A DNA stretch of 64,000 nt from Cyanophora paradoxa CCMP329 (lineage: Eukaryota; Plantae; Glaucophyta). The notes under the pieces were generated by a model. That model did no database searches. It was not told the DNA's origin and saw nothing but the letters and a program-made list of their open reading frames with translations. The DNA lies in the NCBI GenBank assembly GCA_004431415.1, contig QPMI01000546.1, positions 1 to 64,000 on the forward strand, in the 5' to 3' direction. The stretch's first letter is position 1; each line of letters begins with the position of its first letter. Below are positions 2,103 to 25,200 of the stretch, piece by piece. The position numbers and the translations under genes are program-made.

Positions 2103-2123
2103 TTTGCCCTAGGTTCGGAAAAA

Positions 2124-2646: not shown

Positions 2647-2717
2647 ATCGCGCCAAGTCGTAACTGAATAGTCGGCCAATTTTTACAAGTATGTACAATG
2701 GAATGACGCAATACTAT

Positions 2718-3827: not shown

Positions 3828-4107
3828 TTGTGAAAATTCGGAGAGGCGGGGTTTCCTTGGGCTGAGAGAAGGCGGCGAACCCGTTTCAAGAGTGAGCCAA
3901 AATGGCGGCGGACCGCGGTTTTGTGGGCGATTTTTTTCGCGGTCTAGTTCGCAACGGAAAACGTTGCCAACTGGCCTGAAAAAAGCCAAATTTAGCGTTG
4001 GACCGAAGGCAGAAAAAGGGAGCCGGCCTGACGGAAATCGCCCGAGTGCGTCCGCCGAAGGTCGAGTCTCGGATGGGGGGTACACCCTCAGGGGCCCCCC
4101 TGGCCCC

Positions 4108-4578
4108 TCACCCTGGTAGTGCCCTCTCAAAGGGATTTTCGAAGCCGTACAATTCTTGGTAAGTCTCGTAATCCGGGCTGTACCCCCTCACAATCTGCGG
4201 GAGCCCCATTGAAAGCCTCCGTCTATCCTCTCTCAATTCCCTGCGGAAAAGTCTACGGTCTTCTCGAGCTTCGCGTGTCACGCCAGCTGGGCGTGGTCTA
4301 TGATTGTTAGGGTTGTCGTAGCCTGGTCCCACCAGCCTCACGAAATTTTCGCGTATGGCCTCGGGGAGGCTCTGGAAACGGCTCGTCGCGTGGAACTCAA
4401 TCCATTCATTGAATCGACGCGGATATTGACGGATGACTTCAAGCACGCCCTGTGTGTTGGGCTCTGGTGTTACGTCGGGGATGTCATGTCCCGTGAGGTG
4501 CCAACGCCAGAACTCGCGCAACCTCTCGAATGCCATATTCAACTCAAAGGGAAAATCGTAATAGAGATTGCCTGACAT
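4108..4578 (-). CDS. Hypothetical protein (156 aa, intact, intronless)
   Basis: AAAAATG start reading MSGNLYYDFPFEL. The longer ORF-track version merely reads through the repeat array. Confidence 0.55.
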   Translation of the reverse strand: MSGNLYYDFPFELNMAFERLREFWRWHLTGHDIPDVTPEPNTQGVLEVIRQYPRRFNEWIEFHATSRFQSLPEAIRENFVRLVGPGYDNPNNHRPRPAGVTREAREDRRLFRRELREDRRRLSMGLPQIVRGYSPDYETYQELYGFENPFERALPG

Positions 4579-4589
4579 TTTTCTCCCCG

Positions 4590-4691
4590 TCCGAAAATTT
4601 CCCCGCTTTTGGGTCCAGACTCTGATTCCAACTCTTCCCAAGTCCCAAGTCCCAAGTCCCAAGTCCCAAGTCCCAAGTCCCAAGTCCCAGG
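4590..4691 (-). repeat. Heptamer cassette 3: CCTGGGA(CTTGGGA)7 AGAGTT plus tail, ~57 bp upstream of ATG 4578
   Basis: Array at 4636-4691. Confidence 0.95.
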
Positions 4692-5081
4692 TCACATTTT
4701 TCTCCCATTTTGACTCGAGATTCTGACCAAGTCCAAATCCGGGCCCGGGATTCGAACCCTCGTTTTCGATCGATTTCACGCGTGAAAACGGCACTTTTCG
4801 GCCTTTTCCGATTTTTCCTTTCTCGCGATCGCATTAATGTCCCCGATCTCGAAATCGCGATCGAAAAGGGTCGCGATCGGGAGAAAATCGCGATCGCCAG
4901 GGTCGTGATCGCCGCGATCGCCAGCCTCGGAGGGGGTACCCCCACAGCTGTTGCGGCGGTTATAAGAACCTCCGCAATCCAAGCGTCACTTCCGAGTCTC
5001 GAGCTCTCGGAGTTGACTTTTCGCGTTTGGCCCATTGATGGCCCTCTTATATACAGTATTATAGACTACTACTAGGCTAGT

Positions 5082-5253
5082 GCGCCGCGGCCGCCGCGGC
5101 GGCGCCGCGGCGCCGGCGCCGCGGCCGCGGCCCGCGCGGCGCGCGCGGCCCGGGCGGCCGGGCCCGGCGGCGGGCCGGCCCGGGCGCCGGCGGGCCCGCG
5201 CGCGGCGGCGGGGCGGCGGCGCGCCGGCGGCGCCCGCCGCGGGCCGCGGCGCC
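5082..5253. repeat. 172-bp tract composed only of G and C
   Basis: No A or T between 5082 and 5253. Confidence 0.9.
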
Positions 5254-5488
5254 ACAGACTCAGTGACTGCCACTGTCTGCCAGTCACTGCCGACTCACTG
5301 GGCAGTGGGCCCTGATCGATCACGACTCACGAGTGAGCTCGAGATTCACGACGAATCGTCGACGATGATCAATGACTCAGTTAGTGCCTGGCCGCCGGGC
5401 CCCGGCCCCCGGGCCCAGAGGCACTGCGGCAGACTCAGCCTCACTCAGGCACTGCGGCAGTCTGGCAGTGCCTGGCAGTGGCTGGCAC

Positions 5489-5956
5489 TAGTGCTGGGTT
5501 CAGTCAGGCTCCACCCCTGACCCAGTCGCTCAGCCCCCCTGACTGTGACTGAATCAGTCAACCCGAGGTTCAGTCAGGCTACCGTGCAAAAACTGAGGAA
5601 AATGACTCGGAAATGACCCAGATGCGATCCATCTAAGTTGCCAAGCACAGTGCGCGGGCAGTAAGGACTCTACTAAGGAGTGATTAGGCGAGCAAAGCAT
5701 AAGAACACTGGCCCCCGTTAGCCTCGTTAGCGCGGGCGGTTTCGTTCAGATTTTGTTGTTTTTCTGGAGGTAAGACGACAGAAGATCCTTTTTAGATCGA
5801 TCCACGTCGAGCTTCAGATGGAAAAAGCCCACAGGGGGGCACGCTCCCAGCAGGGTTTTGTATGGGACTGAGAGATCCTCAGTCGGCCAATTTGGTGACT
5901 CAGTCGGGTCAGTCAGACCCTCTGACTTTGACTGACAGTGACTGAACCCAGCCCTA
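5489..5956. mobile_element. hAT-type MITE (468 bp), family 1
   Basis: 18-bp TIRs TAGTGCTGGGTTCAGTCA / TGACTGAACCCAGCCCTA (1 mismatch). Exact 8-bp TSD GCTGGCAC at 5481-5488 and 5957-5964. Subterminal TCAGTCA/TGACTG motifs. Confidence 0.9.
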
Positions 5957-6054
5957 GCTGGCACTGCCTGGCAGCAGCCTGGCTGCCCCGGCACTGCCGT
6001 GAGGCCCGGGGGCCGGGACTCTCGAGTCTCTGGCCCGGGAGTCCGAGGACTCCC

Positions 6055-6110
6055 CGGGAGTCGGGAGTCGGGAGTCGGGAGTCGGGAGTCGGGACTCGGG
6101 AGTCGGGACT
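6055..6110 (+). repeat. (CGGGAGT/CGGGACT)8 heptamer array
   Basis: Read directly. Confidence 0.9.
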
Positions 6111-6397
6111 CTGTTAGCGTCAACTTAGCGAGCGCACTGCGGCAGTCTGCAGCTGTCTGCTGCGCAGAGCGCTCAGGCGGCTCGAGCGCTCCCCGGCTGC
6201 GACTACAGCTAGACTGCGAGCACTGCGGCAGCTACAACGAGCCCAGTAAGCTGCGCGCCGCGGCGCTTAGCACTGCGCTAGCACGCGCGTACCGCGATTG
6301 TTGCCACACGGCCGCCGGCGCCCCAGCCCCGGCCCGCTTTCAGCCGCGGCGCGGCGCTGACGAGCTCGAGATACATGTACATGTGTATATATACACC

Positions 6398-6621
6398 GAT
6401 ATCGCGATCGCATCGCATCCGCTGGTGTGCATTACATGCAAGCGTGCACATACGTATAAGTATTCTATTAGGCTATGCATACCGGTATGATGTGTCTGCG
6501 TGCACTGCGCGACCGATATCGCGATCGCATCGCATCCGCTGGTGTGCATTACATGCAAGCGTGCACATACGTATAAGTATTCTATTAGGCTATGCATACC
6601 GGTATGATGTGTCTGCGTGCA
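6398..6621. repeat. Perfect tandem duplication of 107 bp (period 117)
   Basis: 6398-6504 is identical to 6515-6621. Confidence 0.9.
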
Positions 6622-8058
6622 TATGCATATAACGCTCTCATGCATATATGTGTATGTGTGACCGTCGGACTGCGATACAGCATTAGTACTGACCCGATAG
6701 TCTGCATTTGCGTGCGCAGTTCGAATCATCATTATGACCAACTTGACAAGTGTGGAAAGGCCGATACCTGATCATGATCTGTATGGAATGCAATGTGTAC
6801 CGATACTCCATGGCCAGCACCCGCATGTGCGCAGCTTCCAAAGTTCAAGTTTATGCACGCATAAACGCGCATATCCGCCCCATCAATTGCTTCGATGGTC
6901 TAGATCTGTGGAGCGCAGAGCCGGCGCCGATTGTAAGCGCGGGACAAGGAGAGCGCTACCGCGAGCTCGCTGATTTCACGAGGAACGCGCGTAGAACGCG
7001 TGTGCGCCTTCAGCGCGCCCACACCGGTGCCAGCGCCCATACCAGAGCCGTCGAGCAGCATGCGCAGCACGACACGCTTGAGCTCTGGTCCTGATTGCAA
7101 TCGGCGGTCCGCAGTTGCAGGCTCACCGCGGCACGAGAGATTGGCGAATCGCGGAGTCTGAAGTGTCCATTGCGAAGCCTTCATCTTGAGCCTCGAGCTC
7201 CTTCTACATATATATCCCAGCCTTGAAGATCGGCTATAGTACCTGTGCGCCATATTTCTGACGCGATCTATGACGCGTGATGTTAATGTTCATCCAGTAT
7301 CCTGCGAGTGCAGGCTTGAGCTTGGCCCTCGCGGCCTCAACGCCAGCGAACAGTACGTCAGCGCCAACGAACAGTGGCCTAGGCCCCGGATCCCCGGAGT
7401 CACTCCTCCATTGCTTGCAGGCCGTGCCTTTAAGGGCGAGCCTTGCGATCGATACCGGACGGGCGGGCGGCCGTCCGCGGCCAGCTGCAGCTGCAGGCCC
7501 AGGCCCAGCAGCTCCGGGAATCCGGATCCAGAGCGTTGCCTGCAGCGCTAGCCGCGCGCTGCAGCATTGAGGGAAGGGAGTTCGCGTCGCCGTGCACGTG
7601 CACGCTCGCATCTGGCTTCGATCAGGTAAGAAAAGGACATAGGCGAAACGCAATCGAAGCACAACATGTACATCATGATCAGCCGCTGCTGATCGTTATT
7701 CCGCAGTTTTTTTCCCCTTCAGATCGATCGCCATTCATGAGCTGACAAATGCATGCGAGCAAGTTTCAGATCACGAATTCGAATCTCTGAAAGATCCAAA
7801 ATCCTGAGGTGATCATGACATCAATTCTTTTCAACACTTTTTACGCAACCTTCCGCTGACTGGAAAAAGTCTGTACCGGGATTCTCGGGGCCGATATAAC
7901 AGCCGTTCATTTATCAAATAGCGAATGGAATCCGGAGGTTTCCTTGAGCTTGGCGATCTCCTGAAGCTAGCGCTTGGCCCCCCTTCGAATTCGGGAATGA
8001 CGCAAACAGGCACGCGCAAGCTTTAAAAAGCGTATTTCGGCTCGCGAGTGAATATTAA

Positions 8059-11000
8059 ATGCGCGCGATTTTTGCAGAATGTGCGATCGGCGACATTGCT
8101 CGAGACGCACGAATAAACATCTCCGCTTCGGTATTATCGGAGACCGCGAGGAGTGGGAGGCGGCGGAGTCGCCCGGGTGGGAGCTCGCATGCGAGAACAC
8201 TTTTTTTGCAATTCCTTCTCTGCCTCCTCCTGCTGTCAATGAACACGGCGAGGACCGACGCGTGGTGCGCGGAAGCGGGAATTTTCTCGTGCACGCGGCG
8301 CCGTCATGCGCAGTACTAGTGCTAGCCGCGTCTAAAATGCGCGTTCCCCCAACTTCAATATCTGCTAATTGTAAGCGCGAGCGCAGGGTCACGGTTTCCT
8401 ACAGCGACACCGCGCCCGGCGCTTCCTCCGCGGGCGTCGCCATCCTCGAGTCCGACGCGTTTGTAGGTGCATGGACCCGAAGAATTCGAACCCTATGTCT
8501 CCTTCTGCAAATGCAGCGCTCATGCTCGGGCGGGGTCAGGCTACTACCTCCGAACGGCGTCCCCGGCCCGGTCCCTGTTCGTCTCTGGGAACCTCACGGT
8601 GGGTCGCTCGGGTAGCGGCGGGAGGCTGGCGGTGTCTGGTGCGCAAAACGGATTTCGCGCTCGACGGCACAATTGAAGTCCGACGGTGTGGGGCGCGCGT
8701 GCAGGATCTTCGGTTATCGAGGGGGCAGACTCCAACGACCTGACGCTGCGCGCAGCGACGGATGCTGCACAGGTGAGAGGGCTATCTACGTATACGTGTG
8801 CACGACCGATAAACGCCCTTCGGCCTCGTTGAACGCTGCGGCCCCCGCGGGGTCATCTAAATTCACGCATTTCGAAACCGTCGGGAAAACGTGCAAATAA
8901 AAGTTCTCGCTATTTTCTTGGATCCTCTTTCTAATTGATGAACTCGCCTGTATATTTCGCCGAGCGCAGATAATTCTACGGGCCCGCGGCAGGGCCGGGT
9001 CCGCAGATGCCGGCGCGGCCTCGAGCTCTGACGTCCTTCTGCTCCCGGGCGGGCCCGTGGGCGTCGTGCGTTGGCTTTCGATTCTGTCTTCAATGCCAGG
9101 TCTAGCGGTCCACCTCTTGATTAATTCCTGCGCCAGGTTTCCGTGCTGGGAGCCCTATCGACGCTTGAGGCCAGCAACGTGAGGGCGCCATCCTCCTCGC
9201 CGACCCTCGTCCTCTCCGGGGCACAAGGTGCGCTTCGTTAAAGCTTTCATTACTCTAGCGAGACCATTATCGACCGCCCACGTGCACCTCTTTTAAACCT
9301 TTCAGTTTCTATTCCGCCCCCATGCGCACCCCCCCCCCCCTCCTCCTCCTCCTCCTCCTCCACCCTCCCCCCCCCTCCCCCCCCCCCCCCCCACCACCAC
9401 CATGGCCATTTCCCTCTCAGCACGAACTCTCGCGCCCATTTCTTTGGGGGGCTCCCAAGACCGGCACGTCCTCGCTCCCTCCCCATTTGCCGCGTTAAAT
9501 TTCCACCCTCGAGCTCCCGTGGCCACCTTCCACCGTTCATCCGGATCCCTTCCCCCTCTCGTCATCCTTTCCCTGGCACCTCGCTCCACGAATCCTCCAG
9601 CTTCGCCGCGGCCACCCGAAACGCACGTGGGCAGCGTCTGACTGTACCTTGCAATCGCTTGGCCATGGCAGCAAGCGCTGGCTCCGGCACAGTTTCCGGG
9701 GCTGGAGCGCTTCCCGCCGCTGTCTCGGTCGGAGGCTCCGCATCGCCGAATATCGAATTGCGCCCTGGGAGCGCCGGTACCATTACGGTCCGCCATATTT
9801 TTTTTGGATGATAATTGTTTCATTCTTCTGCTTACTCGTCCAAACATAACAGGCCACGGGGAACCTCGTCCTGGCTTCGAGCCGGGAGCTGAGGATAGAC
9901 GGCGCTGCGCTGACCGCGCTCTCCGCGACGGGAACGCTCTCGGGCAGCTTCGTCCTTCGGAACGCGACCCTGTCCTCGCCGTCTGCGGCCGACGCGCGCC
10001 TGGCGGGCCGCTGGGGGGTCGGCGGGGCGACGCTGGCGCTGTCGGCGGGCGAGGCGCTGCGCTTCGAGGCCGGCCCCAACGGGCAGGCCGTCGATATCGC
10101 GATCGTGCAGTCGGACTCGCTGCGCGCGGTCGCCCCCTTCGTCGCCGAGGCCGGCGTCCAGGTCAACGCGGGTGCGTCCAAGTTGATCGGGCGCCGGCGC
10201 CGGATTTCGAATTCGAATGATGTTCTGAAATCGCGCGCAGGTCTCGTCGCCGCGAACGGCGGGCTGGCGGTGCAAACGTCTCGCTTTCAAGTTGATGCAT
10301 CAGGCAATGTGCTTGTGACCGGCAGCTTGGGAGTGACAGGAACCGTTACGGCCACGGGGTTGCTGGTCCTTCTTGGCGGATCCGGCTCGAAGGGCGGACT
10401 GGATGTCGGGGGGAACCGCTTTACTGTGGACGACAGCGGGAACATGCTCGTCACGGGATCCGCGGGCATCACTGGAACCTTCAGCGCGACGGGTCTGCTG
10501 AACGCGAATGGCGGAATCAACGTTCGGGCGGACCGGTTCACAGTCGACGACAGTGGCAACACACTTGTCACGGGCACGCTCGGGATCACCGGCACCCTCC
10601 GAGCGACTGGCTTGCTCGAGCCCTATGGCGGTATCAACGTACGGACGAGCGCTTTTGCGGTCGACATCAGTGGAAACACGCTCATCACAGGAGATGTAGG
10701 AACTACAGGGACCATCACCGCTACGGGCCTGCTCAACGCGGACGGCGGTCTCAACGTGCACTCGAACAAGCTCGTCATTGACATGAGCGGGAATGTGCTT
10801 GTCACAGGCGCGATCGGGACGACAGGGACCGTCACCGCCACCGGCCTGCTGAACGCGGACGGCGGTCTCAACGTGCACTCGAACAAGCTCGTCGTCGACA
10901 TGAGCGGGAACGCGCTCGCCACGGGCACGGTCGGCATCACGGGGACCGTGACAATCACCGGGCTGATGAACGCGGAGGGCGGCCTCAACGTGCAGGCGAA

Positions 11001-14000
11001 CCGGTTCACTGTCGACATCTCCGGCAACGTGCTGACCAGCGGCACCCTGGGGGTGACGGGGACTGTCACATCGACCGGCATGCTATCGCTGATCGGGGGC
11101 TTCGGCGTCTCGGGGGGCTTCGACGTCGGCACGAACCGATTCGCTGTGGACGCGAGCGGGAACACGATCGTGACGGGCTCCTTGGGTGTGACTGGCACAG
11201 TGACCTCGACGGGCCTGCTGAACGCGGACGGCGGCCTCAACGTGCACTCGAACAAGCTCGTCATTGACATGAGCGGGAATGTGCTTGTCACAGGCGCAAT
11301 CGGGACGACGGGGACCGTCACCGCCACTGGGCTGCTGAACGCGGACGGCGGCCTGAACGTGCACTCGAACAAGCTGTCGGTCGACATGAGCGGGAACACG
11401 CTCGCGACGGGCACGGTCGGCGTGACAGGGACCGTGACGATCACCGGGCTGATCAACGCGGACGGCGGCCTCAACATGCAGGCAAACCGGTTCACTGTCG
11501 ACATCTCCGGCAACGTGCTGACCAGCGGCACCCTGGGGGTGACGGGGACTGTTACATCGACCGGGATGCTGTCGCTGATCGGGGGCTTCGGCGTCACGGG
11601 GGGCTTCGACGTCGGCACGAACCGATTCGCTGTGGACGCGAGCGGGAACACGATCGTGACGGGCTCCTTGGGTGTGACTGGCACAGTGACCTCGACGGGC
11701 CTGCTGAACGCGGACGGCGGCCTCAACGTGCACTCAAACAAGCTGTCGGTCGACATGAGCGGGAATGTGCTTGTCACAGGCGCAATCGGGACGACGGGGA
11801 CCGTCACCGCCACCGGCCTGCTGAACGCGGACGGCGGCCTCAACGTGCACTCGAACAAGCTCATCATCGACATGAGTGGGAACACGCTCGCGACAGGCAC
11901 GGTCGGCATCACGGGGACCGTGACAATCACTGGGCTGATGAACGCGGAGGGCGGCCTCAACGTGCAGGCAAATCGGTTCACTGTCGACATCTCCGGCAAC
12001 GTGCTGACCAGCGGCACTCTTGGGGTGACGGGGACTGTCACATCGACCGGCATGCTGTCGCTGATTGGAGGCTTCGGCGTCTCGGGGGGCTTCGACGTCG
12101 GCACGAACCGATTCGCTGTGGACGCGAGCGGAAACGCACTGGTGACGGGTTTCGTGGGTGTGACGGGCACAGTGACCTCGACGGGCCTCCTGAACGCGGA
12201 TGGGTATCTGAACGTGCATGCGAACAAGCTGTCGATTGACATGAGCGGGAATGCGCTGGTGACGGGCGCAATGGGGCTGACGGGCACGGTGACCTCGACG
12301 GGCCTGCTGAACGCGGACGGCTATCTGAATGTTCGTACCAACAAGTTTGTGATTGACGCGAGCGGGAATGCGATGGTGACAGGCTCGATGGGACTGACGG
12401 GCACCGTCACCTCGACGGGCCTGCTGATTGTGGAGGGTGGTCTCAACGTGCACGCCAACAAGTTTACAATCGACATGAGCGGGAATGCGCTGGTGACCGG
12501 CGCGGTGGGGCTGACGGGCACTGTGACCTCGACGGGCCTGCTGAGCGTGGAGGGTGGCCTGAACGTGCACGCCAACAAGCTCACAATTGATATGAGCGGG
12601 AATGCGCTGGTGACCGGCACAGTGGGGCTGACGGGGACGGTGACGTCAACGGGTCTGCTGAGCGTGGAGGGTGGCCTCAACGTGCACGCGAACAAGCTCT
12701 CGATCGATATAAGCGGAAATGCGCTTGTCACGGGGACAATGGGGCTGACGGGCACTGTGACGTCAACGGGTCTGCTCAACTCGTTCGGCTACCTGAACGT
12801 GTATGCGAACAAGCTGTCGATCGATGTTAGCGGGAACGTGCTGGTTACAGGCGCGATGGGGCTTACAGGCACGGTAACCTCGACGGGCCTGTTGAACGCA
12901 GACGGCTATCTGAACGTGCAAACGAACAGGTTCGTCATCGACGCGAGCGGGAACGTGCTCGCCACCGGCACCCTTGCAGTGACGGGAACGGTGACTTCGA
13001 CGGGCTTGCTGGCTCTAATCGGGGGCTTCGACCTGTCCGGGGGCTTCAATGTCGGCACAAATCGGTTTGTGGTGGACGCAGGCGGAAATTCAATTGTGAC
13101 GGGCTTCTTGGGTTTGACCGGCACGGTGACTTCAACGGGCCTGCTGAACGCGGATGGCTACCTGAATGTGCACGTCAACAAGCTCTCGATCGACATGAGC
13201 GGAAACGCACTGGTGACGGGTTTCGTGGGTGTGACGGGCACAGTGACCTCGACGGGCCTCCTGAACGCGGATGGGTATCTGAACGTGCATGCGAACAAGC
13301 TGTCGATTGACATGAGCGGGAATGCGCTGGTGACGGGCGCAATGGGGCTGACGGGTACCGTCACCTCGACGGGCCTGCTGAACGCGGACGGCTATCTGAA
13401 TGTTCGTACCAACAAGTTTGTGATTGACGCGAGCGGGAATGCACTGGTGACAGGCTCGATGGGACTGACGGGCACCGTCACCTCGACGGGCCTGCTGATT
13501 GTGGAGGGTGGCCTGAACGTGCACGCCAACAAGCTCACAATTGATATGAGCGGGAATGCGCTGGTGACCGGCGCGGTGGGGCTGACGGGCACTGTGACCT
13601 CGACGGGCCTGCTGAGCGTGGAGGGTGGCCTGAACGTGCGCGCCAACAAGCTCACAATTGATATGAGCGGGAATGCGCTGGTGACCGGCACAGTGGGGCT
13701 GACGGGGACGGTGACGTCAACGGGTCTGCTGAGCGTGGAGGGTGGCCTCAACGTGCACACGAACAAGCTCTCGATCGATATAAGCGGAAATGCGCTTGTC
13801 ACGGGGACAATGGGGCTGACGGGCACTGTGACGTCAACGGGTCTGCTCAACTCGTTCGGCTACCTGAACGTGTATGCGAACAAGCTGTCGATCGATGTTA
13901 GCGGGAACGTGCTGGTTACAGGCGCGATGGGGCTTACAGGCACGGTAACCTCGACGGGCCTGTTGAACGCAGACGGCTATCTGAACGTGCAAACGAACAG

Positions 14001-17000
14001 GTTCGTCATCGACGCGAGCGGGAACGTGCTCGCCACCGGCACCCTTGCAGTGACGGGAACGGTGACTTCGACGGGCTTGCTGGCTCTAATCGGGGGCTTC
14101 GACCTGTCCGGGGGCTTCAATGTCGGCACAAATCGGTTTGTGGTGGACGCAGGCGGAAATTCAATTGTGACGGGCTTCTTGGGTTTGACCGGCACGGTGA
14201 CTTCAACGGGCCTGCTGAACGCGGATGGCTACCTGAATGTGCACGTCAACAAGCTCTCGATCGACATGAGCGGAAACGCACTGGTGACGGGTTTCGTGGG
14301 TGTGACGGGCACAGTGACCTCGACGGGCCTCCTGAACGCGGATGGGTATCTGAACGTGCATGCGAACAAGCTGTCGATTGACATGAGCGGGAATGCGCTG
14401 GTAACGGGCGCAATGGGGCTGACGGGTACCGTCACCTCGACGGGCCTGCTGAACGCGGACGGCTATCTGAATGTTCGTACCAACAAGTTTGTGATTGACG
14501 CGAGCGGGAATGCGCTGGTGACTGGCGCGGTGGGACTGACGGGCACCGTCACCTCGACGGGCCTGCTGAGCGTGGAGGGTGGTCTCAACGTGCACGCCAA
14601 CAAGTTTACAATCGACATGAGCGGGAATGCACTGGTGACAGGCTCGATGGGACTGACGGGCACCGTCACCTCGACGGGCCTGCTGAGCGTGGAGGGTGGC
14701 CTGAACGTGCACGCCAACAAGTTTACAATCGACATGAGCGGGAATGCGCTGGTGACCGGCGCGGTGGGGCTGACGGGGACGGTGACGTCAACGGGTCTGC
14801 TGAGCGTGGAGGGTGGCCTCAACGTGCACACGAACAAGCTCTCGATCGATATAAGCGGAAATGCGCTTGTCACGGGGACAATGGGGCTGACGGGCACTGT
14901 GACGTCAACGGGTCTGCTCAACTCGTTCGGCTACCTGAACGTTTATGCGAACAAGCTGTCGATCGATGTTAGCGGGAACGTGCTGGTTACAGGCGCGATG
15001 GGGCTTACAGGCACGGTAACCTCGACGGGCCTGTTGAACGCAGACGGCTATCTGAACGTGCAAACGAACAGGTTCGTCATCGACGCGAGCGGGAACGTGC
15101 TCGCCACCGGCACCCTTGCAGTGACGGGAACGGTGACTTCGACGGGCTTGCTGGCTCTAATCGGGGGCTTCGACCTGTCCGGGGGCTTCAATGTCGGCAC
15201 AAATCGGTTTGTGGTGGACGCAGGCGGAAATTCAATTGTGACGGGCTTCTTGGGTTTGACCGGCACGGTGACTTCAACGGGCCTGCTGAACGCGGACGGC
15301 TACCTGAATGTGCACGTCAACAAGCTCTCGATCGACATGAGCGGAAACGCACTGGTGACGGGTTTCGTGGGTGTGACGGGCACAGTGACCTCGACGGGCC
15401 TCCTGAACGCGGATGGGTATCTGAACGTGCATGCGAACAAGCTGTCGATTGACATGAGCGGGAATGCGCTGGTGACGGGCGCAATGGGGCTGACGGGTAC
15501 CGTCACCTCGACGGGCCTGCTGAACGCGGACGGCTATCTGAATGTTCGTACCAACAAGTTTGTGATTGACGCGAGCGGGAATGCACTGGTGACAGGCTCG
15601 ATGGGACTGACGGGCACCGTCACCTCGACGGGCCTGCTGATTGTGGAGGGTGGCCTGAACGTGCACGCCAACAAGCTCACAATTGATATGAGCGGGAATG
15701 CGCTGGTGACCGGCGCGGTGGGGCTGACGGGCACTGTGACCTCGACGGGCCTGCTGAGCGTGGAGGGTGGCCTGAACGTGCGCGCCAACAAGCTCACAAT
15801 TGATATGAGCGGGAATGCGCTGGTGACCGGCACAGTGGGGCTGACGGGGACGGTGACGTCAACGGGTCTGCTGAGCGTGGAGGGTGGCCTCAACGTGCAC
15901 GCGAACAAGCTCTCGATCGATATAAGCGGAAATGCGCTTGTCACGGGCACAATGGGGCTGACGGGCACTGTGACGTCAACGGGTCTGCTCAACTCGTTCG
16001 GCTACCTGAACGTGTATGCGAACAAGCTGTCGATCGATGTTAGCGGGAACGTGCTGGTTACAGGCGCGATGGGGCTTACAGGCACGGTAACCTCGACGGG
16101 CCTGTTGAACGCAGACGGCTATCTGAACGTGCAAACGAACAGGTTCGTCATCGACGCGAGCGGGAACGTGCTCGCCACCGGCACCCTTGCAGTGACGGGA
16201 ACGGTGACTTCGACGGGCTTGCTGGCTCTAATCGGGGGCTTCGACCTGTCCGGGGGCTTCAATGTCGGCACAAATCGGTTTGTGGTGGACGCAGGCGGAA
16301 ATTCAATTGTGACGGGCTTCTTGGGTTTGACCGGCACGGTGACTTCAACGGGCCTGCTGAACGCGGACGGCTACCTGAATGTGCACGTCAACAAGCTCTC
16401 GATCGACATGAGCGGAAACGCACTGGTGACGGGTTTCGTGGGTGTGACGGGCACAGTGACCTCGACGGGCCTCCTGAACGCGGATGGGTATCTGAACGTG
16501 CATGCGAACAAGCTGTCGATTGACATGAGCGGGAATGCGCTGGTGACGGGCGCAATGGGGCTGACGGGTACCGTCACCTCGACGGGCCTGCTGAACGCGG
16601 ACGGCTATCTGAATGTTCGTACCAACAAGTTTGTGATTGACGCGAGCGGGAATGCACTGGTGACAGGCTCGATGGGACTGACGGGCACCGTCACCTCGAC
16701 GGGCCTGCTGAGCGTGGAGGGTGGTCTCAACGTGCACGCCAACAAGTTTACAATCGACATGAGCGGGAATGCGCTGGTGACCGGTGCGGTGGGGCTGACG
16801 GGCACTGTGACCTCGACGGGCCTGCTGAGCGTGGAGGGTGGCCTGAACGTGCACGCCAACAAGCTCACAATTGATATGAGCGGGAATGCGCTGGTGACCG
16901 GCACAGTGGGGCTGACGGGGACGGTGACGTCAACGGGTCTGCTGAGCGTGGAGGGTGGCCTCAACGTGCACGCGAACAAGCTCTCGATCGATATAAGCGG

Positions 17001-19917
17001 AAATGCGCTTGTCACGGGCACAATGGGGCTGACGGGCACTGTGACGTCAACGGGTCTGCTCAACTCGTTCGGCTACCTGAATGTTTATGCGAACAAGCTG
17101 TCGATCGATGTTAGCGGGAACGTGCTGGTTACAGGCGCGATGGGGCTTACAGGCACGGTAACCTCGACGGGCCTGTTGAACGCAGACGGCTATCTGAACG
17201 TGCAAACGAACAGGTTCGTCATCGACGCGAGCGGGAACGTGCTCGCCACCGGCACCCTTGCAGTGACGGGAACGGTGACTTCGACGGGCTTGCTGGCTCT
17301 AATCGGGGGCTTCGACCTGTCCGGGGGCTTCAATGTCGGCACAAATCGGTTTGTGGTGGACGCAGGCGGAAATTCAATTGTGACGGGCTTCTTGGGTTTG
17401 ACCGGCACGGTGACTTCAACGGGCCTGCTGAACGCGGACGGCTACCTGAATGTGCACGTCAACAAGCTCTCGATCGACATGAGCGGAAACGTGCTGGTGA
17501 CGGGCGCGATGGGAATCACGGGCACCTTCACCTCGACGGGCCTGATGAACGTGCTGGGGGCGGCGGCGTTCACGTCGCTGGTGAAAGCAAACGGCGGCGT
17601 GAACGTGATCGCGAACCGCTTCGTGGTCGACACGAGCGGGAATGCGCTGGCGACGGGCACGGTCGGCATCACGGGCTCGTTGTCCTCGACGGGCCTGCTG
17701 AGCGTAGAGGGCGGTCTCAACGTGCACGCGAACAAGCTCTCGATCGACATGAGCGGGAACGTACTGGTGACGGGCACAATGGGCATCACGGGCACCTTCA
17801 CGTCGACGGGCCTCCTGAACGTGGAGGGGGCGGCGGTGGTCACGTCTCTGGTGAACGCGAACGGCGGCGTGAACGTGATCGCGAACCGCTTCGTTGTCGA
17901 CACGAGCGGGAATGCGCTGGCGACGGGCACGGTCGGCATCACGGGCACGGTGTCCTCGACGGGCCTGCTGAGCGTAGAGGGCGGTCTCAACGTGCACGCG
18001 AACAAGCTCTCGATCGACATGAGCGGGAACGTGCTGGTGACGGGCACAATGGGCATCACGGGCACCTTCACGTCGACGGGCCTCCTGAACGTGGAGGGGG
18101 CGGCGGTGGTCACGTCTCTGGTGAACGCGAACGGCGGCGTGAACGTGATAGCGAACCGCTTCGTTGTCGACACGAGCGGGAATGCGCTGGCGACGGGCAC
18201 GGTCGGCATCACGGGCACGGTGTCCTCGACGGGCCTGCTGAGCGTAGAGGGCGGTCTCAACGTGCACGCGAACAAGCTCTCGATCGACATGAGCGGGAAC
18301 GTGCTGGTGACGGGCACAATGGGCATCACGGGCACCTTCACGTCGACGGGCCTCCTGAACGTGGAGGGGGCGGCGGTGGTCACGTCTCTGGTGAACGCGA
18401 ACGGCGGCGTGAACGTGATCGCGAACCGCTTCGTGGTCGACACGAGCGGGAATGCGCTGGCGACGGGCACGGTCGGCATCACGGGCTCGGTGACCTCGAC
18501 GGGGCTGCTGAACGCCGACGGCGGGTTCAACGTAAATGCGAACCGTTTCAGCATTGATGTGAGTGGTAACGTGCTCGTGACGGGTACCTTCGGAATCACG
18601 GGTACTATCACCTCCACGGGTCTGCTTTCGCTCACGGGTGGCATCAACATTCGAAATGCTGCCGGCACCATTCCTCGCCTCGTCGTCGATCCCCTCGGGG
18701 AGCTGTCTTCATCTGCCAACGTCGCCGTTCGGGGCGATGTCACGACGACTGGAATGATACGCGCATTCGCAACCGCCATTGCCCGCAATGGATACACGAC
18801 TGCCGGCGGCGGGACAGACATTGTCCCAGCCCTGGAGGTCAATGGGCGCGCCGTGTTCAAGGCGTTTACCTCCGTCCCCGGGTCCAGCGAATTGCCTCCG
18901 CAGTTCGAGTGGGGTCTTCGTGTCGTCAACCCCGCTTTGAGCGATGGCGTAAACCCTTCCACGACTCTTTTCGAAGTCGGAAGGGGCACTTCGCCTGAAA
19001 GTATGATCGTTCTTGCGACGGGGACTGTCGGCATCACGGGAACTACGAGCTGCACTGCACTGCTGAACGCGGAAGGTGGCATCAACGTTCGGTCGAACAA
19101 GTTTGCTGTCGACATGAGCGGGAACGCGTTGCTCACTGGAGCGCTCGGCATTACGGGGACCTTGACATCCACTGGCATGCTGAGTGTTGATGGCGGCATA
19201 CTTGTGAGCACGAACAAGTTCTCCGTCGACGTGTCGGGCAATGCAGCCGTCACGGGGTCCCTGACGGTGACGGGCGGCATTAACTCCGTCGGCTCAATCA
19301 CGTCAACGGGTATGCTGTATGCAAACGGGGGCATAACGGTGAACGTGAACAAGTTCATTGTCGACGGCACCAGTGGCAATACCCAGATCTCGGGCTCCCT
19401 CACGGTTACGGGGGCGATCACGGCCGGCACGGGCGTGACGGTGACCAGCGGCGGGGCTACCATCACAGATGGCGGCCTGACCGTCAACGGGGGCAGTTCG
19501 CTGACGCAGACGTTGACGGTCAACACGGGCGGCCTGACGGTGGCCGCGGGCGGCCTGACGGTGAGCACGGGCGGCCTGGCTGTGACAGGGGTTATTACGG
19601 CTAACAATGGAATCGCTCACAAAGCGGCCACGACGAGGACAGTTGTTGCTGCTGGCTCGCTTACACTGGACCCAGCAACAGACACGGTTCAGCAGATCAT
19701 CAACGCTGCAGGCCTGACGACGGGAGCGTATACTGTCACGTTCAGCAATTGCGTGGCTGGCTATAATGGGTTTACTTTTTGGATTTATGTTGAGAGTCTA
19801 GGAGCAGGCGCCGTGACTGTCAAAGGGGTCGGTCTTGGAACCGGAAGAGCTGCTATGTGCATGTGCTTCGCTGCTGTCAGCAATTTCCTTTGCAGTTCTT
19901 TCTTCAGCAATTTCTAG
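8059..19917 (+). CDS. Giant G/T/V/N-rich repeat protein, beta-helix/fibre-like, possibly secreted (start uncertain)
   Basis: Uninterrupted exon 10241-19917 with about 70 units of a 39-aa repeat (TGTVTSTGLLNADGGLNVHANKLSIDMSGNALVTGAMGL) and 45/51-aa variants. Short upstream exons (VTVSYSDTAPG..., RSLFVSGNLTVGRSG..., ALRFEAGPNG...). In-frame 69-nt GT-AG intron at 10172-10240. Hydrophobic TLFLQFLLCLLLLS near 8197-8238. Confidence 0.8.
10741..18510 (+). repeat. Nested higher-order coding repeats: ~3 x 486 bp, 5 x 1071 bp (12130-17484), ~3 x 270 bp
   Basis: Recurrences at 10741/11227/11713; 12130/13201/14272/15343/16414; 17701/17971/18241. Unit arithmetic: 486=3x117+135, 1071=8x117+135, 270=117+153. 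Confidence 0.95.
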
Positions 19918-20128
19918 CACCTGCTTAAACTATGTTGTGTCCGACATGTTGCTCCTTATATAATTGGACATTGTTTTATTTCTAACAGTTGGAATTCGTA
20001 TTGGCTAAACAATTCACCATGCGCATGTACATGTGTTTTAATTTCACGAGCTTGAGCAAAATCTCAACACTCAAATGGATTGAACAAATTCAGGATCAGC
20101 CAATTGATCATGAGATGTATACGTAGTT

Positions 20129-20262
20129 GAGATCGAGATATCGATCGATTTTCGGTTACATTGAGATCAATTGAGATTGAGATTTCGCGCCCTTGGAGAT
20201 CGAGAGATCGATTGAGTTTCGGTTATATTGAGATCGATTGAGATTTAGATTTCGCGTCCTTG
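20129..20262. repeat. Degenerate 67-bp tandem duplication, GATC-rich
   Basis: GAGATCGAGA...TTTCGGTTA...AGATTTCGCG.CCTTG occurs twice. Confidence 0.8.
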
Positions 20263-22242
20263 AATGCATGGGGGGTGCACCATGTGAATGCATGCCTAGG
20301 CCTCTCGCCGGCCCCGGCCCTATGTATATAGCTACTGATCGTGACATGTACACGTGGAGTCGACGTCGCAGGGGCGCGTGAGGGGATCCGGAACTGCAGC
20401 TGCAGCTGATCGTGAGATATAATTATAAACACGGCATTTAACTTGTGCACCCTAGGCCTCATCGTCGACGCATGACCGGCAACTGGCTAGCACCATCGAA
20501 TTCGGCTCTCTAGCTATAGTTGATCAGTCGTTTTTTCTGCAAAAGTGGACGTCGACGTCGCATTGATACACCATGCCCGGCGCCAAGGCACATGTACCAA
20601 TGCTCTACTACCCAGAACCAGAACCCCCTCCTCACCTGCGCCCCCCTCCCCCCCCCCCCCCCCCCCCCCCCAAATTCGAAGGGCACGTCATGTAGAGCAG
20701 TGATCCATGTGCCGTGGTGTGTCAGTGCGACGTCCACTTTTGCAAAAAACGAAATGCATTCTGCATTAATGTTCGTACTACGTATATGGTATATATTGGC
20801 CACTTGTATGTGTTTAATTTTAAGTTCACCTCGTGTTTTAACCTGCATAACATCGGCATGAGGATGCAGGTTAAAGCTTCCTGCGTTAAAGCACTCCTGA
20901 AGGCTGAACCACGTGCACGTAATGGCTAAAACGAATCAGTCTGCATGGCTCAATTAAAACGGACTGACTAGTACTGCTGCTGAACGTGGGCGGATTGGCG
21001 GTCGGTGACTGAAATGCTTGAGCTTGATGGAAAGATTGTGCACTCGTAATTATAACAAAAGTAAAGCTCTGAGTCTGTTAACTGCCAGAACGTTAACTAC
21101 CATACCTCGTGGAATTCGAAAGCTCTGACATTTTATTACCGACGCCTTCCGCAGCAGTCCGTCCAAAGAATCACAGCTGGATAGTTGCCGAATCGAAGGG
21201 CCCTGAACTTGGTCCGCCTGGGCGGGCGGCTTCGAAGTGGAGACTTTCGCGCGCTGGCGCTGCAGGGTCTCCAGCCGCCGCTAGCGCTGGTCGTGGTGCT
21301 CCTCGAGCTCGTGGTGGTCCTGCATATGCGTGCGTCTCACTCAGTGACTTAAGCTTAAGCTTGGAGTTCGCTCTCGGAGGCGCGTTCCGGATCCGCACCG
21401 TGCCGAAGAAGAAGCGGTGCTTATAAATGGATTAACTATAAGCTTGAGCTTCCCGTCAGTTAATTGACCTCCGCCTCCGGCGCCGGGCCCAGGGCGACCG
21501 CCTTCTGCCCCCGCATCTGGCGCACGGCCGCCTGCCGCAGCAGCCTGCCGCGCGAGGCCGTCCACTGGCGATGGCGATCAAATCGCACCGAGTCCTGTAT
21601 TCACGACATCAGGCCTTAAGTTGCCTCGGGCCTCGAACATCGATATCTTCCACGTGCACTCGGCGCGGATGAGGCCCGAGGTTCAGCAATAGGATGCCGA
21701 TGCCATCGGCCTGTTCGAACCTCGGTTGAGCAAGAAAGGAATAATTGCAAGGGCAGCCAGCCTCAGCCGAGCACCTGCAGGACGGTGGCTGCCAGTGCCG
21801 AGTAGGAGCCCCGAGACGCCGACCGTGATCTGAGCGCGAGGCAACAGGCCAACTATACCTGTACAGATGTGCGAACGATCTCTACGTGTACGTAACTCTC
21901 GATGACCTCACTGTCGACGCAGATCACAATCACGCGAGCTCGAGCTCGGCCATATGCATGATCATGATGGAAGATCACGAGCTCGCGGATCCGATGATCG
22001 GTTGCTTTGCAATTGCCAACTGCAAAAAGCGCATGCACACGAAGATATCTACCTGTAGCTATAGCTAGATCTCGTTGTTCAAAACCATTACCTGCCTGAA
22101 AAGACATCGCAATGAATGGACATCGCCTAGAGTTGCATGTTCGATATGCAAGCAGTCCGCTAAACGCGATTCCAGACGCGAATCATGTCCGCTCGTGATC
22201 ACGACCTACTCAAACAACTCAAACAAGACAGCCTACGGCTTT

Positions 22243-25200
22243 TTACGGCTTCGAATTCGCATCTCCCCCCTGGGCACTTGCGGGTGTGGCCGCCGGGGCC
22301 GCCGGGGGCGGCGGGGCGGGGCGCTTCTCGACGTGGACCTCGAGGGAGGAGATCCAGTCGAGGAGGAGGCGGAAGAGCTTGTCCCGCTTCACCGGCTTCG
22401 TGCTGTAGTCGTCTGCGCGCGGCCGCAGGCGGCGCGGGCGCCTTCAGTGCCGACATGGAACGAAGTTTCAAAGAAGAGCGCACCCATGCCGGCCTGCAGG
22501 CACTTGGCGCGATCTGCGGCGCGGAGGCGCGAACTCGGCGGGTGCCGCGAAGGCTGAAGGGCGGCCAAGCCCGGCGGGGCGGGGCGCACCGTCGGCGTTG
22601 GCGGCGAAGGCGGTGACGGCGATGACGGGGTGCCGGGGCAGCCCCAGCTCCGCCTCTGCGGCACCGGCGCGTGAGACACGAGACACGGAGAGCTTTGTGC
22701 ATGGAAAAGGGAAGCGGGGCGAGGCGCACCGATGGCCCGTATCCGTTGCGTCGCCTCGTACCTGCGCGGGGCCCGCGTCAGGCGCGAGGCAGCGGGCCCA
22801 GCGGCGGCGCGTCGCTCGCCCGTTCATCCGCGGCATCTGCGGGGCAGGGCAGAGCAGGCGGAGTCAGGCCGGGAAGCGGGCGGGCCGAGCTAGACAAGCA
22901 ACGGGCCGACCTCGCAGTCCATGCACACGACCGTGAAGGCCTTCGCAGCGGGGCGCGGCGGCGTCAGAGCGCGGCGGAAATCTTCAGGATTTCGGAGGGC
23001 GGCAGGGAGGGGCGGCGCACGTGCGCGGAGCTCCCCCCCTTGTCCTTCACCTCCTGCAGCCTGTGCCGAGCGGAAAGGGTCAAGACGACCACGAGAGCCA
23101 GGGGCGCGCGAGGGGGAAGGGCACCGCTGGCGGGCGCGGGCCTCGAAGACCTCGGCGGCCTCGACGCCGTCCTTGGCGCGCGTGGCGCGCCACCCGACGT
23201 TCTCGAGCATCGCGCACAGCACCTTCATGTTGATCGGGTTGTCTGCCGCGCCGAGGGTGAGAGCGGCCCCGCCGGGCGGGCGGGCGGGCGCGGCCGCGTC
23301 TCGCGCGGGAATTCGGGCGGAAATTGGGCGCGCGCGCGGGCGGGCGCGCCTTCGGCGACGAGGACGTCGAGGACGACCTCCTCGGGCCGCAGCTGCTCCC
23401 GCGGCCGCGGCTCCGGCCCCGTCACCCTCAGCGCCGGGGGGGCCGGCGCAGGGGCCGCCGCGGGGGCTGGCGGCGGCGCGGGAGCGGAGGGCGCGGCGGC
23501 GGGCGACAGCGGCTCGCCGGCCTGGCGGGTCGGGCGGGGCAGGAGGACGGGCGCCGGCGGGGCCTCGTCGGGCGGGTCGGCGTCGAGGGGCACGGCGGCG
23601 CGGAACTGGGCGATGGTCGCCAGCAGCTGCGACCGCACGATCGGCTTGTGCAGGTGCGCGTCCTGTTTGCAGAGAAGCGGCTCAGTCGGATCGAACCGGG
23701 GGCGCTGGGGCGGGGCGGGGCGCGCGGGCACCATGCCGGCCTGGAGGCAGCGGCGCTCGTCCTCGGGCAGCACGCTCGCCGTGAGGGCCTGCCGGCGCAC
23801 GCGGCCGTGGCTCGGCCGAGGCGAGGGGCGGGGGGAGCGCAGCGCAGAATCAAGGGCTGGGCGCACGACGATGGGGTGCCTGCAGATTCCTGCGGATGCA
23901 GAAACCAATGACGCGGTCAGGGATCGCAAGGCCGGGTGGCGGCGCGGCAGCCGAGGGCGGGCGAGCGGAGGGCACGTGCACGGACCCGACGCCGCCTCAA
24001 TGGCGCGGATCTCGCGCGTCGCAGTGAGCCTGCGCACCCGCAGCCGCGCCACCTCAGCACCGGCCACGCTCGCTCGCTCGCTCAGCCACGCATACGCACC
24101 CGTCCTGTGAAGCGAAGAGGAGGCGGAAGGGAAGGGGGGGCAGGGCCGCAGGTCAGTAACGGGTCGGGGCGGCGCGCGCGCCGCTGCGCAGCGCGGCGCC
24201 TGTCACCTTTGTCGGCATCTGCGGCGGCGGCGTCAGACGTTATTCAAGACTCTTCTTCGAAGACAACTCAAGGATGCTTTGAGAGAGAAACGCTTCGAAC
24301 TCGCCTCGAAGTCCATGAGGATGACGTCGAAGGCGCGCAGCTTGGCGGGGCGCGGGGCCGGCCCCGCCCCGGGGGCCGGCGGCTCGCCGGAGAGGGGCTG
24401 CGGGGAGTGCGCGGCGTGGATACGGTTGACGGCCCTCACGAACTCGTCCACGGCCTGCGGGGCGGGGCCGGCCGCTCAGCTCAGCTCAGCCCGCTCAGCT
24501 CGGCTTAGCTGAGCTTCGCCCAGATGGACGAGGGTGAAGGAGGGGCGGCGGCACCTCCTGGCCATCCCCGGCGACCGTCACCGTGTGCCCCGCCTGCCGC
24601 CCGTCAGATCATCCTCGGAGCAGAGGGCGGGCGGGGGCGGAGGGCGCCGCGCCTTCTCGAGCATGGCCTTCACGATGCGCATGTTGATCTGGTTGTCCTC
24701 CGCCACCTGGCGCCCCCCGCGCGTCGGCCGAGCTTGCTAGGGCCAAAAGCGCGCGGGCGGGCGGGCATCGCGGGCGGGGCGCCGCACCAGGATGCGGGCC
24801 GGCTGGGACGCCGGCTGGTTCAGCGGCTGCCCGTATTGATCCGAGAAGTTCTGCGCGCCCCGCGGCCCGTCAGATCGGGCGGCATCGAACCGGCTGCCTT
24901 CCTTCCCATCCTCCCCGCCCGCCCTCGCTCGCGCGCAGCGGAGCGGAGGGGGAATCCAGTGCAAGCTCCGGGCTGCCCAGGCCGCCGCGCGCGCACCAGG
25001 ACGGTGTCGCAGCCGGCGCTCGAGGCGCGCCGCGTCCTCCGCACGGCCCCGGGCAGCTGCAGCTCCTCCCAGCCCGGGCCCGCCCCCGCCTCCGGCTCCG
25101 GCTCCGCCTGCGCCCCGCCCCGTCGGCGCCTGGACTCTCCAGGGGCGAGACGCGGGCCGGGGCGAAGGCGGGCCTTGACGAGCGGGGACGAGTAGCGGCG

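What the first reader, a model, noticed from the sequence alone, without database searches (positions are those of the whole stretch)
8059..19917. Giant fibre-like protein: intron-rich host-style N-terminus fused to a 9.7-kb single exon
Seen: about 70 beta-strand/turn repeats (NKFxVDxSGNxLVTG, TGTVTSTG) nearly devoid of Pro, Cys and Trp. A non-repetitive insert (~18640-19010), GGLTV repeats and a Cys-containing terminal domain follow. There is a candidate signal peptide. Neighbouring genes have introns about every 100 bp. Inference: the shaft-knob-tip layout resembles trimeric beta-helical phage or virus fibres and adhesins, so it may be a domesticated fibre forming a surface filament or extrusome component. 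Regular TxT arrays could also be glycosylation or ice/mineral-binding surfaces.
Basis: partly seen in the sequence, partly recalled or inferred. Interest (0 to 1): 0.7.

Follow-up and report, generated by a model that had tools for sequence, protein, structure and literature searches.

The report
Phage-fibre repeat protein in freshwater alga
An alga, likely Cyanophora, carries a gene predicted to be spliced from nine exons into a 3,600-residue protein whose roughly 70 repeats match those of bacteriophage virion fibres; the repeat likely came from a virus, and the protein is predicted to be exported as a three-stranded filament about 150-250 nm long.

Summary
A 3,355-codon stop-free frame carries 69 complete repeats, each a 9-residue knob plus 5, 6 or 7 Gly-started hexads. 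A nine-exon model with canonical GT..CAG introns joins it to a signal-like N-terminus (3,583 aa); it needs one exon (9672-9787) inside an apparent long intron. No transcript confirms the join. The closest relatives are Cyanophora paradoxa paralogue fragments. Next come proteins with the same knob-plus-hexad grammar, which sit in tailed-phage structural modules (26 of 36 viral loci checked) and include a cyanophage 'fiber'. The shaft repeat is therefore homologous to phage fibres; transfer from a virus is likely, but direction and donor are unproven. The trimer is inferred from the pattern and the relatives; no trimer model was obtained. Phage ancestry of the tip is inconclusive. Ice binding is unsupported. 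Protist triple-beta-helix fibrils are already known (TLP-12); this one differs in repeat, lacks the S74 chaperone and is in a glaucophyte. The scan had no sequence look-alike, but six earlier notes describe analogous fibre genes in other eukaryotes. Verdict: new variant of a known kind; candidate subunit of Cyanophora's long flagellar hairs.

The parts
8059..8264 (+). Predicted exon 1: in-frame ATG 8059 and a signal-peptide-like hydrophobic stretch (about 8200-8241). An out-of-frame ATG at 8189, just before a run of seven T, would give a canonical short signal peptide if the run were miscalled.
   Evidence: start and export are inferred
8387..8466 (+). Predicted exon 2
   Evidence: open-frame splice model
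8540..8638 (+). Predicted exon 3
8705..8772 (+). Predicted exon 4
8970..9065 (+). Predicted exon 5 (donors at 9057 and 9063 are also in phase)
9137..9227 (+). Predicted exon 6
9672..9787 (+). Predicted exon 7, needed to keep the frame; further exons in 9228-9671 are not excluded
   Evidence: frame breaks without it and is open with it
9853..10171 (+). Predicted exon 8, followed by a 69-bp in-frame, stop-free intron (10172-10240)
   Evidence: GC3 0.93
10241..19917 (+). Predicted exon 9, 9,677 bp: shaft, insert and tip
10276..18639 (+). Shaft: units 1-70, each a 9-residue knob (NKF.VD.S) plus 5-7 Gly-started hexads
   Evidence: dN/dS 0.25 among 37 distinct 117-bp units
12103..17457 (+). Five tandem copies of a 1,071-bp nine-unit block, 94-100% identical: recent expansion or homogenisation
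18640..19020 (+). Insert: one degenerate unit, then about 85 non-repetitive residues, likely a larger knob
   Evidence: Atlas hits are viral but below the recognition level
19093..19440 (+). Last three knob units (71-73)
19450..19590 (+). Five GG[LA][TA][VI] heptad motifs
   Evidence: the same motif recurs in EGF + S74 proteins
19600..19914 (+). C-terminal tip, about 105 aa, 4 Cys, predicted all-beta; no S74 chaperone

Best explanation
This algal nuclear gene encodes about 70 repeats homologous to tailed-phage virion fibre repeats, likely acquired from a virus, and its product is predicted to enter the secretory pathway and wind three chains into a thin filament about 150-250 nm long that likely stands on, or is released from, the cell surface. 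Shown: the frame, the repeat grammar, the homology, purifying selection among units and paralogues in Cyanophora. Inferred: (1) splicing of eight short exons supplies a signal peptide or signal anchor; (2) three chains align at the C-terminal tip, which would replace the S74 chaperone, and zip towards the N-terminus; (3) each hexad forms one side of a triangular rung, with Gly at the corner and residues 3 and 5 in the core, while each knob forms a small hairpin bulge every 5-7 rungs; (4) outward Thr/Ser at position 6 may be O-glycosylated, as in TLP-12; (5) filament length was tuned by tandem duplication of 486-, 1,071- and 270-bp blocks; (6) the tip is the distal contact end. The long narrow flagellar hairs of Cyanophora are the most attractive candidate structure; a cell-surface or mucocyst fibril is equally open.
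For: Grammar: 358 of 362 hexads start with Gly; positions 3 and 5 are 97% and 80% hydrophobic, position 6 is 61% Ser/Thr; unit lengths differ only by multiples of 6. In 166 fetched non-Cyanophora proteins, 168 of 237 inter-knob spacers are multiples of 6 and 644 of 766 hexads start with Gly; commonest spacings 40, 28, 34, 39 (these proteins were fetched mostly as hits, so the set is not random). An HMM of the window's 28 distinct 39-aa units hits 96 of 168 fetched proteins, 0 shuffled and 0 reversed copies, an IMG/VR ORF at E 6e-16 and the cyanophage Syn2 'fiber' AGH56301.1 at E 3e-5. That IMG/VR ORF lies among terminase, head-tail, major head and head-closure genes. A knob-motif DNA pattern matches an estimated 540 viral stretches; 26 of 36 such loci checked have a head, tail or connector PHROG neighbour at E <= 1e-8. 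A bridging hit (P0086) matches 310 of 50,697 phage records, mostly cyanophages, the listed ones largely annotated structural or fibre, but only 4 loci in 185,579 prokaryote genomes (word-limited scan); the two strong ones carry virion-protein matches. 13 of the 56 best non-Cyanophora hits carry Peptidase_S74, the chaperone of triple beta-helices; 9 of the 13 are not GGLTV-rich. PHROGs hits of the shaft: phrog_36982 E 9e-12, phrog_697 E 1e-8. Selection: dN/dS 0.25. Family: three Cyanophora paradoxa fragments on two contigs are among the five best hits, and two repeat-bearing contigs absent from the window appear in a DNA run and in runs guessed to be RNA. Precedent: TLP-12 is a triple beta-helix with 9.6 A per 12 residues (10.1101/2025.09.30.679562, passages); T4 gp34 residues 901-1270 span 18 nm (PMC5537660, passages); these give 157-257 nm. 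C. paradoxa has two kinds of mastigoneme, one long and narrow, and mucocysts (PMC6704402, passages).
Against: No trimer model and no solved structure related by sequence. Direct tblastn of window pieces against named phages found nothing; the link rests on profiles and a bridging protein, and the repeat is low in complexity. The tip's link to phage tips is weak: best 7.2 bits with 4 of 500 shuffles as high, best of five seeds; hhalign probability 0.5%; model pLDDT 59 with best Z 5.7, from a phage-seeded alignment. The hydrophobic stretch lies about 47 residues from the in-frame start and peaks at only 1.5 on a 19-residue Kyte-Doolittle window. The N-terminal 370 aa have no detected relative. 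GGLTV heptads also occur in eukaryote-looking EGF + S74 proteins. No tree was possible, so direction of transfer and donor (phage or eukaryotic virus) are not shown. Nothing ties the protein to flagellar hairs except shape.
Confidence: 0.6

Rival explanations
1. Same fibre, but it is stored in mucocysts and discharged as mucilage or capture fibrils rather than displayed as a standing surface hair.
For: Cyanophora has mucocysts docked at alveolar sutures (PMC6212826 and PMC6704402, passages). The protein has a signal-like stretch and no clear membrane anchor. TLP-12-type fibrils were found free in pond water.
Against: No localisation data either way. A shaft with a distinct distal tip fits a displayed fibre at least as well.
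Confidence: 0.2
2. The repeat is an old or convergent eukaryotic beta-helix motif, not a viral acquisition; the likeness to phage fibres reflects the few ways to build a Gly/Thr/Val triple helix.
For: Low complexity; no direct tblastn match to named phages. Eukaryote-looking EGF + GGLTV + S74 proteins exist, and alveolates have triple-helix fibril candidates.
Against: The match includes the specific knob (NKF.V.D.SGN) and the hexad order after it; shuffled and reversed controls give 0 hits. 22 of the 23 GGLTV-rich proteins have no knob. Of 30 hits looked up, the only ones with a named eukaryotic source are the three Cyanophora fragments; most others are unnamed metagenomic proteins.
Confidence: 0.15
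3. This copy is a dormant or mis-modelled paralogue: the upstream exons are not joined, or the gene is not expressed, and other family members do the work.
For: The splice model is computational, one exon had to be added, and the start is awkward. Paralogues exist.
Against: 10 kb without a stop or frameshift, all unit-length changes in multiples of 18 nt, dN/dS 0.25, and recent block duplications that keep the frame.
Confidence: 0.15
4. The gene is still a fibre gene of an endogenous virus or mobile element and serves virions, not the cell.
For: An intronless, virus-like stretch with 7-bp arrays lies about 3 kb upstream. An earlier unchecked note reports endogenous viruses with phage-type fibres in this genome (e1-10416734).
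Against: Eight host-type introns, a signal-like N-terminus, GC3 0.78-0.93 in exon 8 and the main shaft, and a host signalling gene as downstream neighbour. No capsid or packaging gene was recognised nearby, though the Pfam scan of seven upstream ORFs was simply blank.
Confidence: 0.07
5. A monomeric beta-solenoid that binds ice or mineral through TxT ladders.
For: 15% Thr in the shaft and a TxT motif in almost every unit.
Against: Only 65 of 362 hexads have Thr at both 4 and 6, and never two in a row, so no ladder forms. The phage-type repeats are also Thr-rich.
Confidence: 0.03

Closest known systems
Knob-plus-hexad virion fibres of tailed phages (PHROG 697-type; cyanophage Syn2 'fiber' AGH56301.1; uncultured phage ORFs L089, L092, L005, L085)
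   Same: Same knob motif and Gly-started hexads, same 6-residue length steps, often a small C-terminal beta domain.
   Different: At most 11 knobs per fetched protein against about 72 here; here nuclear, intron-bearing at the 5' end, with a signal-like N-terminus instead of a virion-attachment domain; no S74.
TLP-12 glycofibril and its candidate proteins in Amoebophrya and other alveolates (bioRxiv 10.1101/2025.09.30.679562; passages read, supplements closed)
   Same: Giant protist repeat protein; triple beta-helix with two short strands per 12 residues; Ser/Thr available for glycans.
   Different: TLP-12 candidates have up to 1,263 GSxxSx7 repeats and a C-terminal ICA chaperone. Here the helix is broken by a knob every 5-7 rungs, there is no tandem GSxxSx7 pair and no ICA, and the host is a glaucophyte.
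Bacteriophage T4 long tail fibre gp34 (PMC5537660; passages read)
   Same: Predicted architecture: narrow triple beta-helix punctuated by wider antiparallel domains.
   Different: No sequence match to any PDB chain; the likeness is architectural and inferred.
Unnamed metagenomic EGF + GGLTV + Peptidase S74 proteins (P0036, P0037, P0042, P0072)
   Same: Signal-peptide-like start in several, GGLTV heptads, eukaryote-like appearance.
   Different: They have Cys-rich EGF heads, mostly an S74 end, and almost never the knob repeat; only about 50 residues of the window protein are of this type.

Membership tests
Tailed-phage knob-plus-hexad virion fibres | Repeat homologous to the phage knob-plus-hexad unit | tested here: met
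   HMM hits with 0 shuffled or reversed hits; shared grammar; PHROG hits
Tailed-phage knob-plus-hexad virion fibres | Homotrimeric triple beta-helix | not tested
   The complex-prediction queue was full; only the residue pattern and S74-bearing relatives bear on it
Tailed-phage knob-plus-hexad virion fibres | Encoded in a phage structural gene module | tested here: not met
   Intron-bearing eukaryotic context; relatives do sit in such modules
Tailed-phage knob-plus-hexad virion fibres | N-terminal virion-attachment domain | tested here: inconclusive
   Only exon 8 was scanned against libraries (no credible hit); the rest only against fetched sequences (best E 0.07)
Tailed-phage knob-plus-hexad virion fibres | C-terminal tip of the phage beta-sandwich type (PF25692/PF26209-like) | tested here: inconclusive
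   Atlas 0.92 and 0.90 to viral clusters; HMM 7.2 bits, 4 of 500 shuffles as high; hhalign 0.5%; Z 5.7 at pLDDT 59
TLP-12-type protist glycofibril proteins | Tandem G-S-x-x-S-x7 dodecapeptides | tested here: not met
   0 tandem pairs; a single G[ST]xx[ST] occurs in 47 of 56 39-aa units
TLP-12-type protist glycofibril proteins | C-terminal ICA (Peptidase S74) domain | tested here: not met
   No S74 hit in the last 838 aa at E <= 0.1
TLP-12-type protist glycofibril proteins | Dense O-glycan coat | not testable with these tools
   61% Ser/Thr at hexad position 6 is compatible only
Known mastigoneme proteins (Chlamydomonas MST1; stramenopile EGF-type) - features recalled, not from a call | Cys-rich EGF or Ig-like domains, or a Pro-rich stalk | tested here: not met
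   1 Pro and 0 Cys in 2,788 shaft residues; no EGF hit in the pieces scanned
Trimeric autotransporter adhesins (YadA type) - feature recalled | C-terminal membrane beta-barrel anchor | tested here: not met
   No YadA anchor hit in Pfam or NCBIfam for the C-terminal pieces
Ice-binding TxT beta-solenoids - feature recalled | TxT on consecutive rungs forming a flat ladder | tested here: not met
   Longest run of consecutive TxT hexads is 1

The most novel reading that the evidence does not exclude
This protein or a paralogue is the subunit of the long, narrow flagellar hairs of Cyanophora: a eukaryotic surface organelle built from a captured phage fibre repeat, given a signal peptide and introns and lengthened about sevenfold by tandem duplication. 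That would be a molecular solution to flagellar hairs independent of the green-algal and stramenopile ones.
Probability: 0.2. Interest if true: 0.8.

Novelty: new variant of a known kind. Interest (0 to 1): 0.5.

Why it matters
It gives a named, testable candidate for a glaucophyte surface structure whose proteins I did not find named in the searches made. It adds an Archaeplastida case to the giant triple-beta-helix fibrils so far tied to alveolates, with a shaft that can be traced by sequence to phage virion fibres and without the usual S74 chaperone. The older Cyanophora annotation holds the paralogues only as 140-200-aa fragments, so the family has likely been overlooked. The phage repeat itself has no solved relative by sequence, so a structure of a few units would serve both fields. 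The interest is tempered because analogous fibre genes are already described in protists and recur in this scan.

Tried and rejected
Trimer prediction of the last 274 aa: never ran, the queue was full; no verdict. Single-sequence AlphaFold of the last 190 aa: pLDDT 45, unusable. Tip model from a phage-seeded alignment: pLDDT 59; Foldseek found nothing at E <= 0.001 in PDB or BFVD; the top four VIA rows are phage spike, baseplate-region or tailspike chains at Z 5.1-5.7, rmsd 4.5-4.8, within the range common for unrelated folds and biased by the alignment. PDB sequence searches: nothing credible. Pfam and NCBIfam on window pieces: only compositional noise. Expression: no RNA holder listed for 8000-11000; three runs guessed to be RNA gave no cover of the gene's unique 3' part; neither is evidence for silence, and the strain may differ. 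No read check of the splice joints or of the T run near 8200 was made. Exon 8 against longer proteins: 0 of 7,082 candidates. Window pieces against named phages and viral contigs: no match. P0010 against plasmids: none. P0003 and P0013, which look like giant-virus proteins to me, had no locus in viral contigs, so a eukaryotic-virus donor is untested. PF27148, listed for P0002, is not in the local Pfam. In one search my pattern for the phage knobs was too narrow; one search replaces that part. Of 125 loci, 80 were listed, 75 were read after dropping 5 overlapping ones, 40 carried the strict peptide pattern and 36 had neighbours to scan; only 6 of those 40 repeat ORFs reach E <= 1e-3 with the narrow window HMM. 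No tree was built: 39-residue low-complexity units cannot resolve a donor. Literature: searches for a published phage-type fibre in glaucophytes or algae gave no such paper in the listings (listings and abstract starts only; the library lacks most subscription journals). The supplementary candidate list of the TLP-12 preprint could not be seen and may bear on novelty. No whole genome was held, so paralogue loci could not be read.

Full report
Observation. The + strand is stop-free from 9850 to 19917, 3,355 codons, against at most 325 codons in 200 base shuffles. A knob pattern occurs 73 times; 69 intervals are complete units of 39, 45 or 51 residues. Units 1-70 contain one Pro and no Cys or Trp in 2,788 residues. 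The array has three tiers: 486-bp blocks near 10762-12102, exactly five 1,071-bp blocks at 12103-17457 (94-100% identical) and 270-bp blocks from 17458. Among 37 distinct 117-bp units dN/dS is 0.25. One DNA run holds 18520-20110 in one contig without a difference; it may be this DNA's source. The copy number of the central blocks was not checked with reads.

Gene model. Joining the obvious exons with seven introns breaks the frame at 9227/9853. Adding an exon at 9672-9787 gives an open nine-exon frame of 3,583 aa with eight GT..CAG introns of 65-444 bp; the last exon is 9,677 bp. The donors resemble those of the intron-dense histidine-kinase gene downstream, but I chose them partly on that likeness. 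The N-terminal 370 aa are rich in Ala, Ser, Gly and Leu and have no detected relative. A hydrophobic stretch of about 14 residues lies about 47 codons behind ATG 8059. An ATG at 8189 would give a textbook short signal peptide but is one base out of frame across a run of seven T; whether this is a sequencing slip was not tested. No transcript evidence for the join was obtained.

Host. Three of the five best hits among 1.84 billion representatives are Cyanophora paradoxa fragments of 140-201 aa on two contigs; a second search returns the same three plus one metagenomic protein. They differ from the window's units and look like pieces of mis-annotated paralogues. Two further repeat-bearing contigs that are not in the window appear in a DNA run and in runs guessed to be RNA, one of 1,319 bases at depth 61-64 in all three. 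The host is thus likely Cyanophora, with a small family, at least one member of which is likely transcribed.

Shaft grammar. Every complete unit is a 9-residue knob followed by 5, 6 or 7 hexads. 358 of 362 hexads start with Gly; positions 3 and 5 are 97% and 80% hydrophobic; position 6 is 61% Ser/Thr. This is the pattern expected of a narrow triple beta-helix. TLP-12 has two short strands per 12 residues and rises 9.6 A (10.1101/2025.09.30.679562, passages); T4 gp34 has an 18-nm triple helix over about 370 residues with wider antiparallel domains (PMC5537660, passages). These bounds give 157-257 nm. TxT occurs in 65 of 362 hexads and never twice in a row, which argues against an ice-binding ladder.

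Homology to phage fibres. The other hits share the grammar: in 166 proteins, 168 of 237 spacers are multiples of 6 and 644 of 766 hexads start with Gly. An HMM of the window's units hits 96 of 168 fetched proteins and none of their shuffled or reversed copies; these proteins were fetched mostly as hits, so the count shows specificity, not frequency. The HMM aligns over 38 of 39 positions with units in an IMG/VR ORF (E 6e-16) and in the cyanophage Syn2 'fiber' (E 3e-5). The first lies among terminase, head-tail, major head and head-closure genes; four more viral loci show head or packaging neighbours. A knob-motif pattern matches an estimated 540 viral stretches; of 36 loci with scannable neighbours, 26 have a head, tail or connector PHROG at E <= 1e-8. 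A bridging hit matches 310 named phage records, mostly cyanophages, and 4 loci in 185,579 prokaryote genomes, the two strong ones carrying virion-protein matches. 13 of the 56 best non-Cyanophora hits carry Peptidase S74. Against this: direct tblastn of window pieces to named phages is blank, only 6 of 40 pattern-bearing ORFs pass the narrow window HMM, and no donor or direction can be read from such short units.

Other parts. The insert opens with a degenerate unit; its Atlas hits are viral but below the recognition level. The five GGLTV heptads match a separate set of unnamed, eukaryote-looking EGF + S74 proteins that almost never have knobs. The tip has no Pfam, NCBIfam or PHROG hit of weight. 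The Atlas places it at 0.92 to a viral cluster with 11% PF26209 and 0.90 to one with 33% PF25692, and the tip of one repeat-bearing hit is a PF25692 member. A profile of those tips scores it only 7.2 bits (4 of 500 shuffles as high, best of five seeds), hhalign gives 0.5%, and the alignment-driven model (pLDDT 59) reaches Z 5.7 to phage spike chains. Phage ancestry of the tip is a lead, not a result. There is no S74 domain, so the tip is the likely trimerisation nucleus.

Mechanism. Most likely the spliced N-terminus sends the chain into the secretory pathway, three chains register at the tip and wind into a thin filament with small bulges about every 3 nm, perhaps O-glycosylated, and block duplications set its length. 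C. paradoxa has short flat and long narrow flagellar hairs and mucocysts (PMC6704402 and PMC6212826, passages). The long hairs fit the predicted shape, but nothing here localises the protein. I give 0.6 to an exported, virus-derived trimeric fibre and 0.2 to the specific flagellar-hair reading. No trimer model was obtained because the queue was full.

Comparison and novelty. It works like a phage fibre shaft and like TLP-12, but is a member of neither: it is not in a phage module, and it lacks TLP-12's tandem dodecapeptide and ICA domain. Eight literature searches listed no paper on such a protein in glaucophytes (listings only; the TLP-12 supplements were closed). The scan's index has no sequence look-alike and nothing near this place, but six unchecked notes describe analogous giant fibre genes in other eukaryotes; two of them gave me the TLP-12 lead, which I then read. 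Verdict: new variant of a known kind, interest 0.5.

Noticed in passing
window 1-6100: Intronless, virus- or transposon-like stretch: several compact ORFs (two similar ones near 412 and 1126, one fibronectin-like on the minus strand running off the window start), flanked and interrupted by 7-bp tandem arrays (TCCCAAG and its complement). No Pfam hit for seven ORFs. It may be part of the endogenous virus noted elsewhere in this genome (e1-10416734).
   Followed up: partly
window 22200-31500, minus strand: Intron-dense gene with phytochrome-like sensor, PAS-like, histidine kinase and receiver motifs; read by eye and by short motifs, not scanned against libraries.
   Followed up: partly
window 8189-8264: An ATG one base out of frame with the signal-like stretch, separated from it by a run of seven T; a homopolymer miscall or allele would give a canonical signal peptide.
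   Followed up: no
window 19600-19914 and 18640-19020: GC3 falls to 0.51 in the tip and 0.65 in the insert, against 0.78-0.93 in exon 8 and the main shaft; possibly later-acquired or faster-changing parts.
   Followed up: no
P0036, P0037, P0042, P0068, P0072, P0103: Unnamed metagenomic proteins with Cys-rich EGF heads, long GGLTV heptad arrays and, in several, Peptidase S74. They look like secreted protist fibres; the EGF heads recall stramenopile mastigoneme proteins (recalled, not tested).
   Followed up: partly
L089:7845-9416, L092:7776-9047, L005:7638-8852, L253:2973-4379: In several uncultured phages the repeat protein lies shortly after the major head gene, and in L080 it is fused to a virion structural domain, suggesting head fibres rather than tail fibres.
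   Followed up: partly
window 47000-49000: Lower-GC (about 0.50) island between host-type genes, with no ORF of 150 codons on the plus strand.
   Followed up: no
window 6395-6621 and 20129-20262: A perfect 117-bp two-copy repeat upstream and a 67-bp two-copy repeat downstream of the gene; the 117-bp period equals the coding unit length but the sequence looks unrelated.
   Followed up: no
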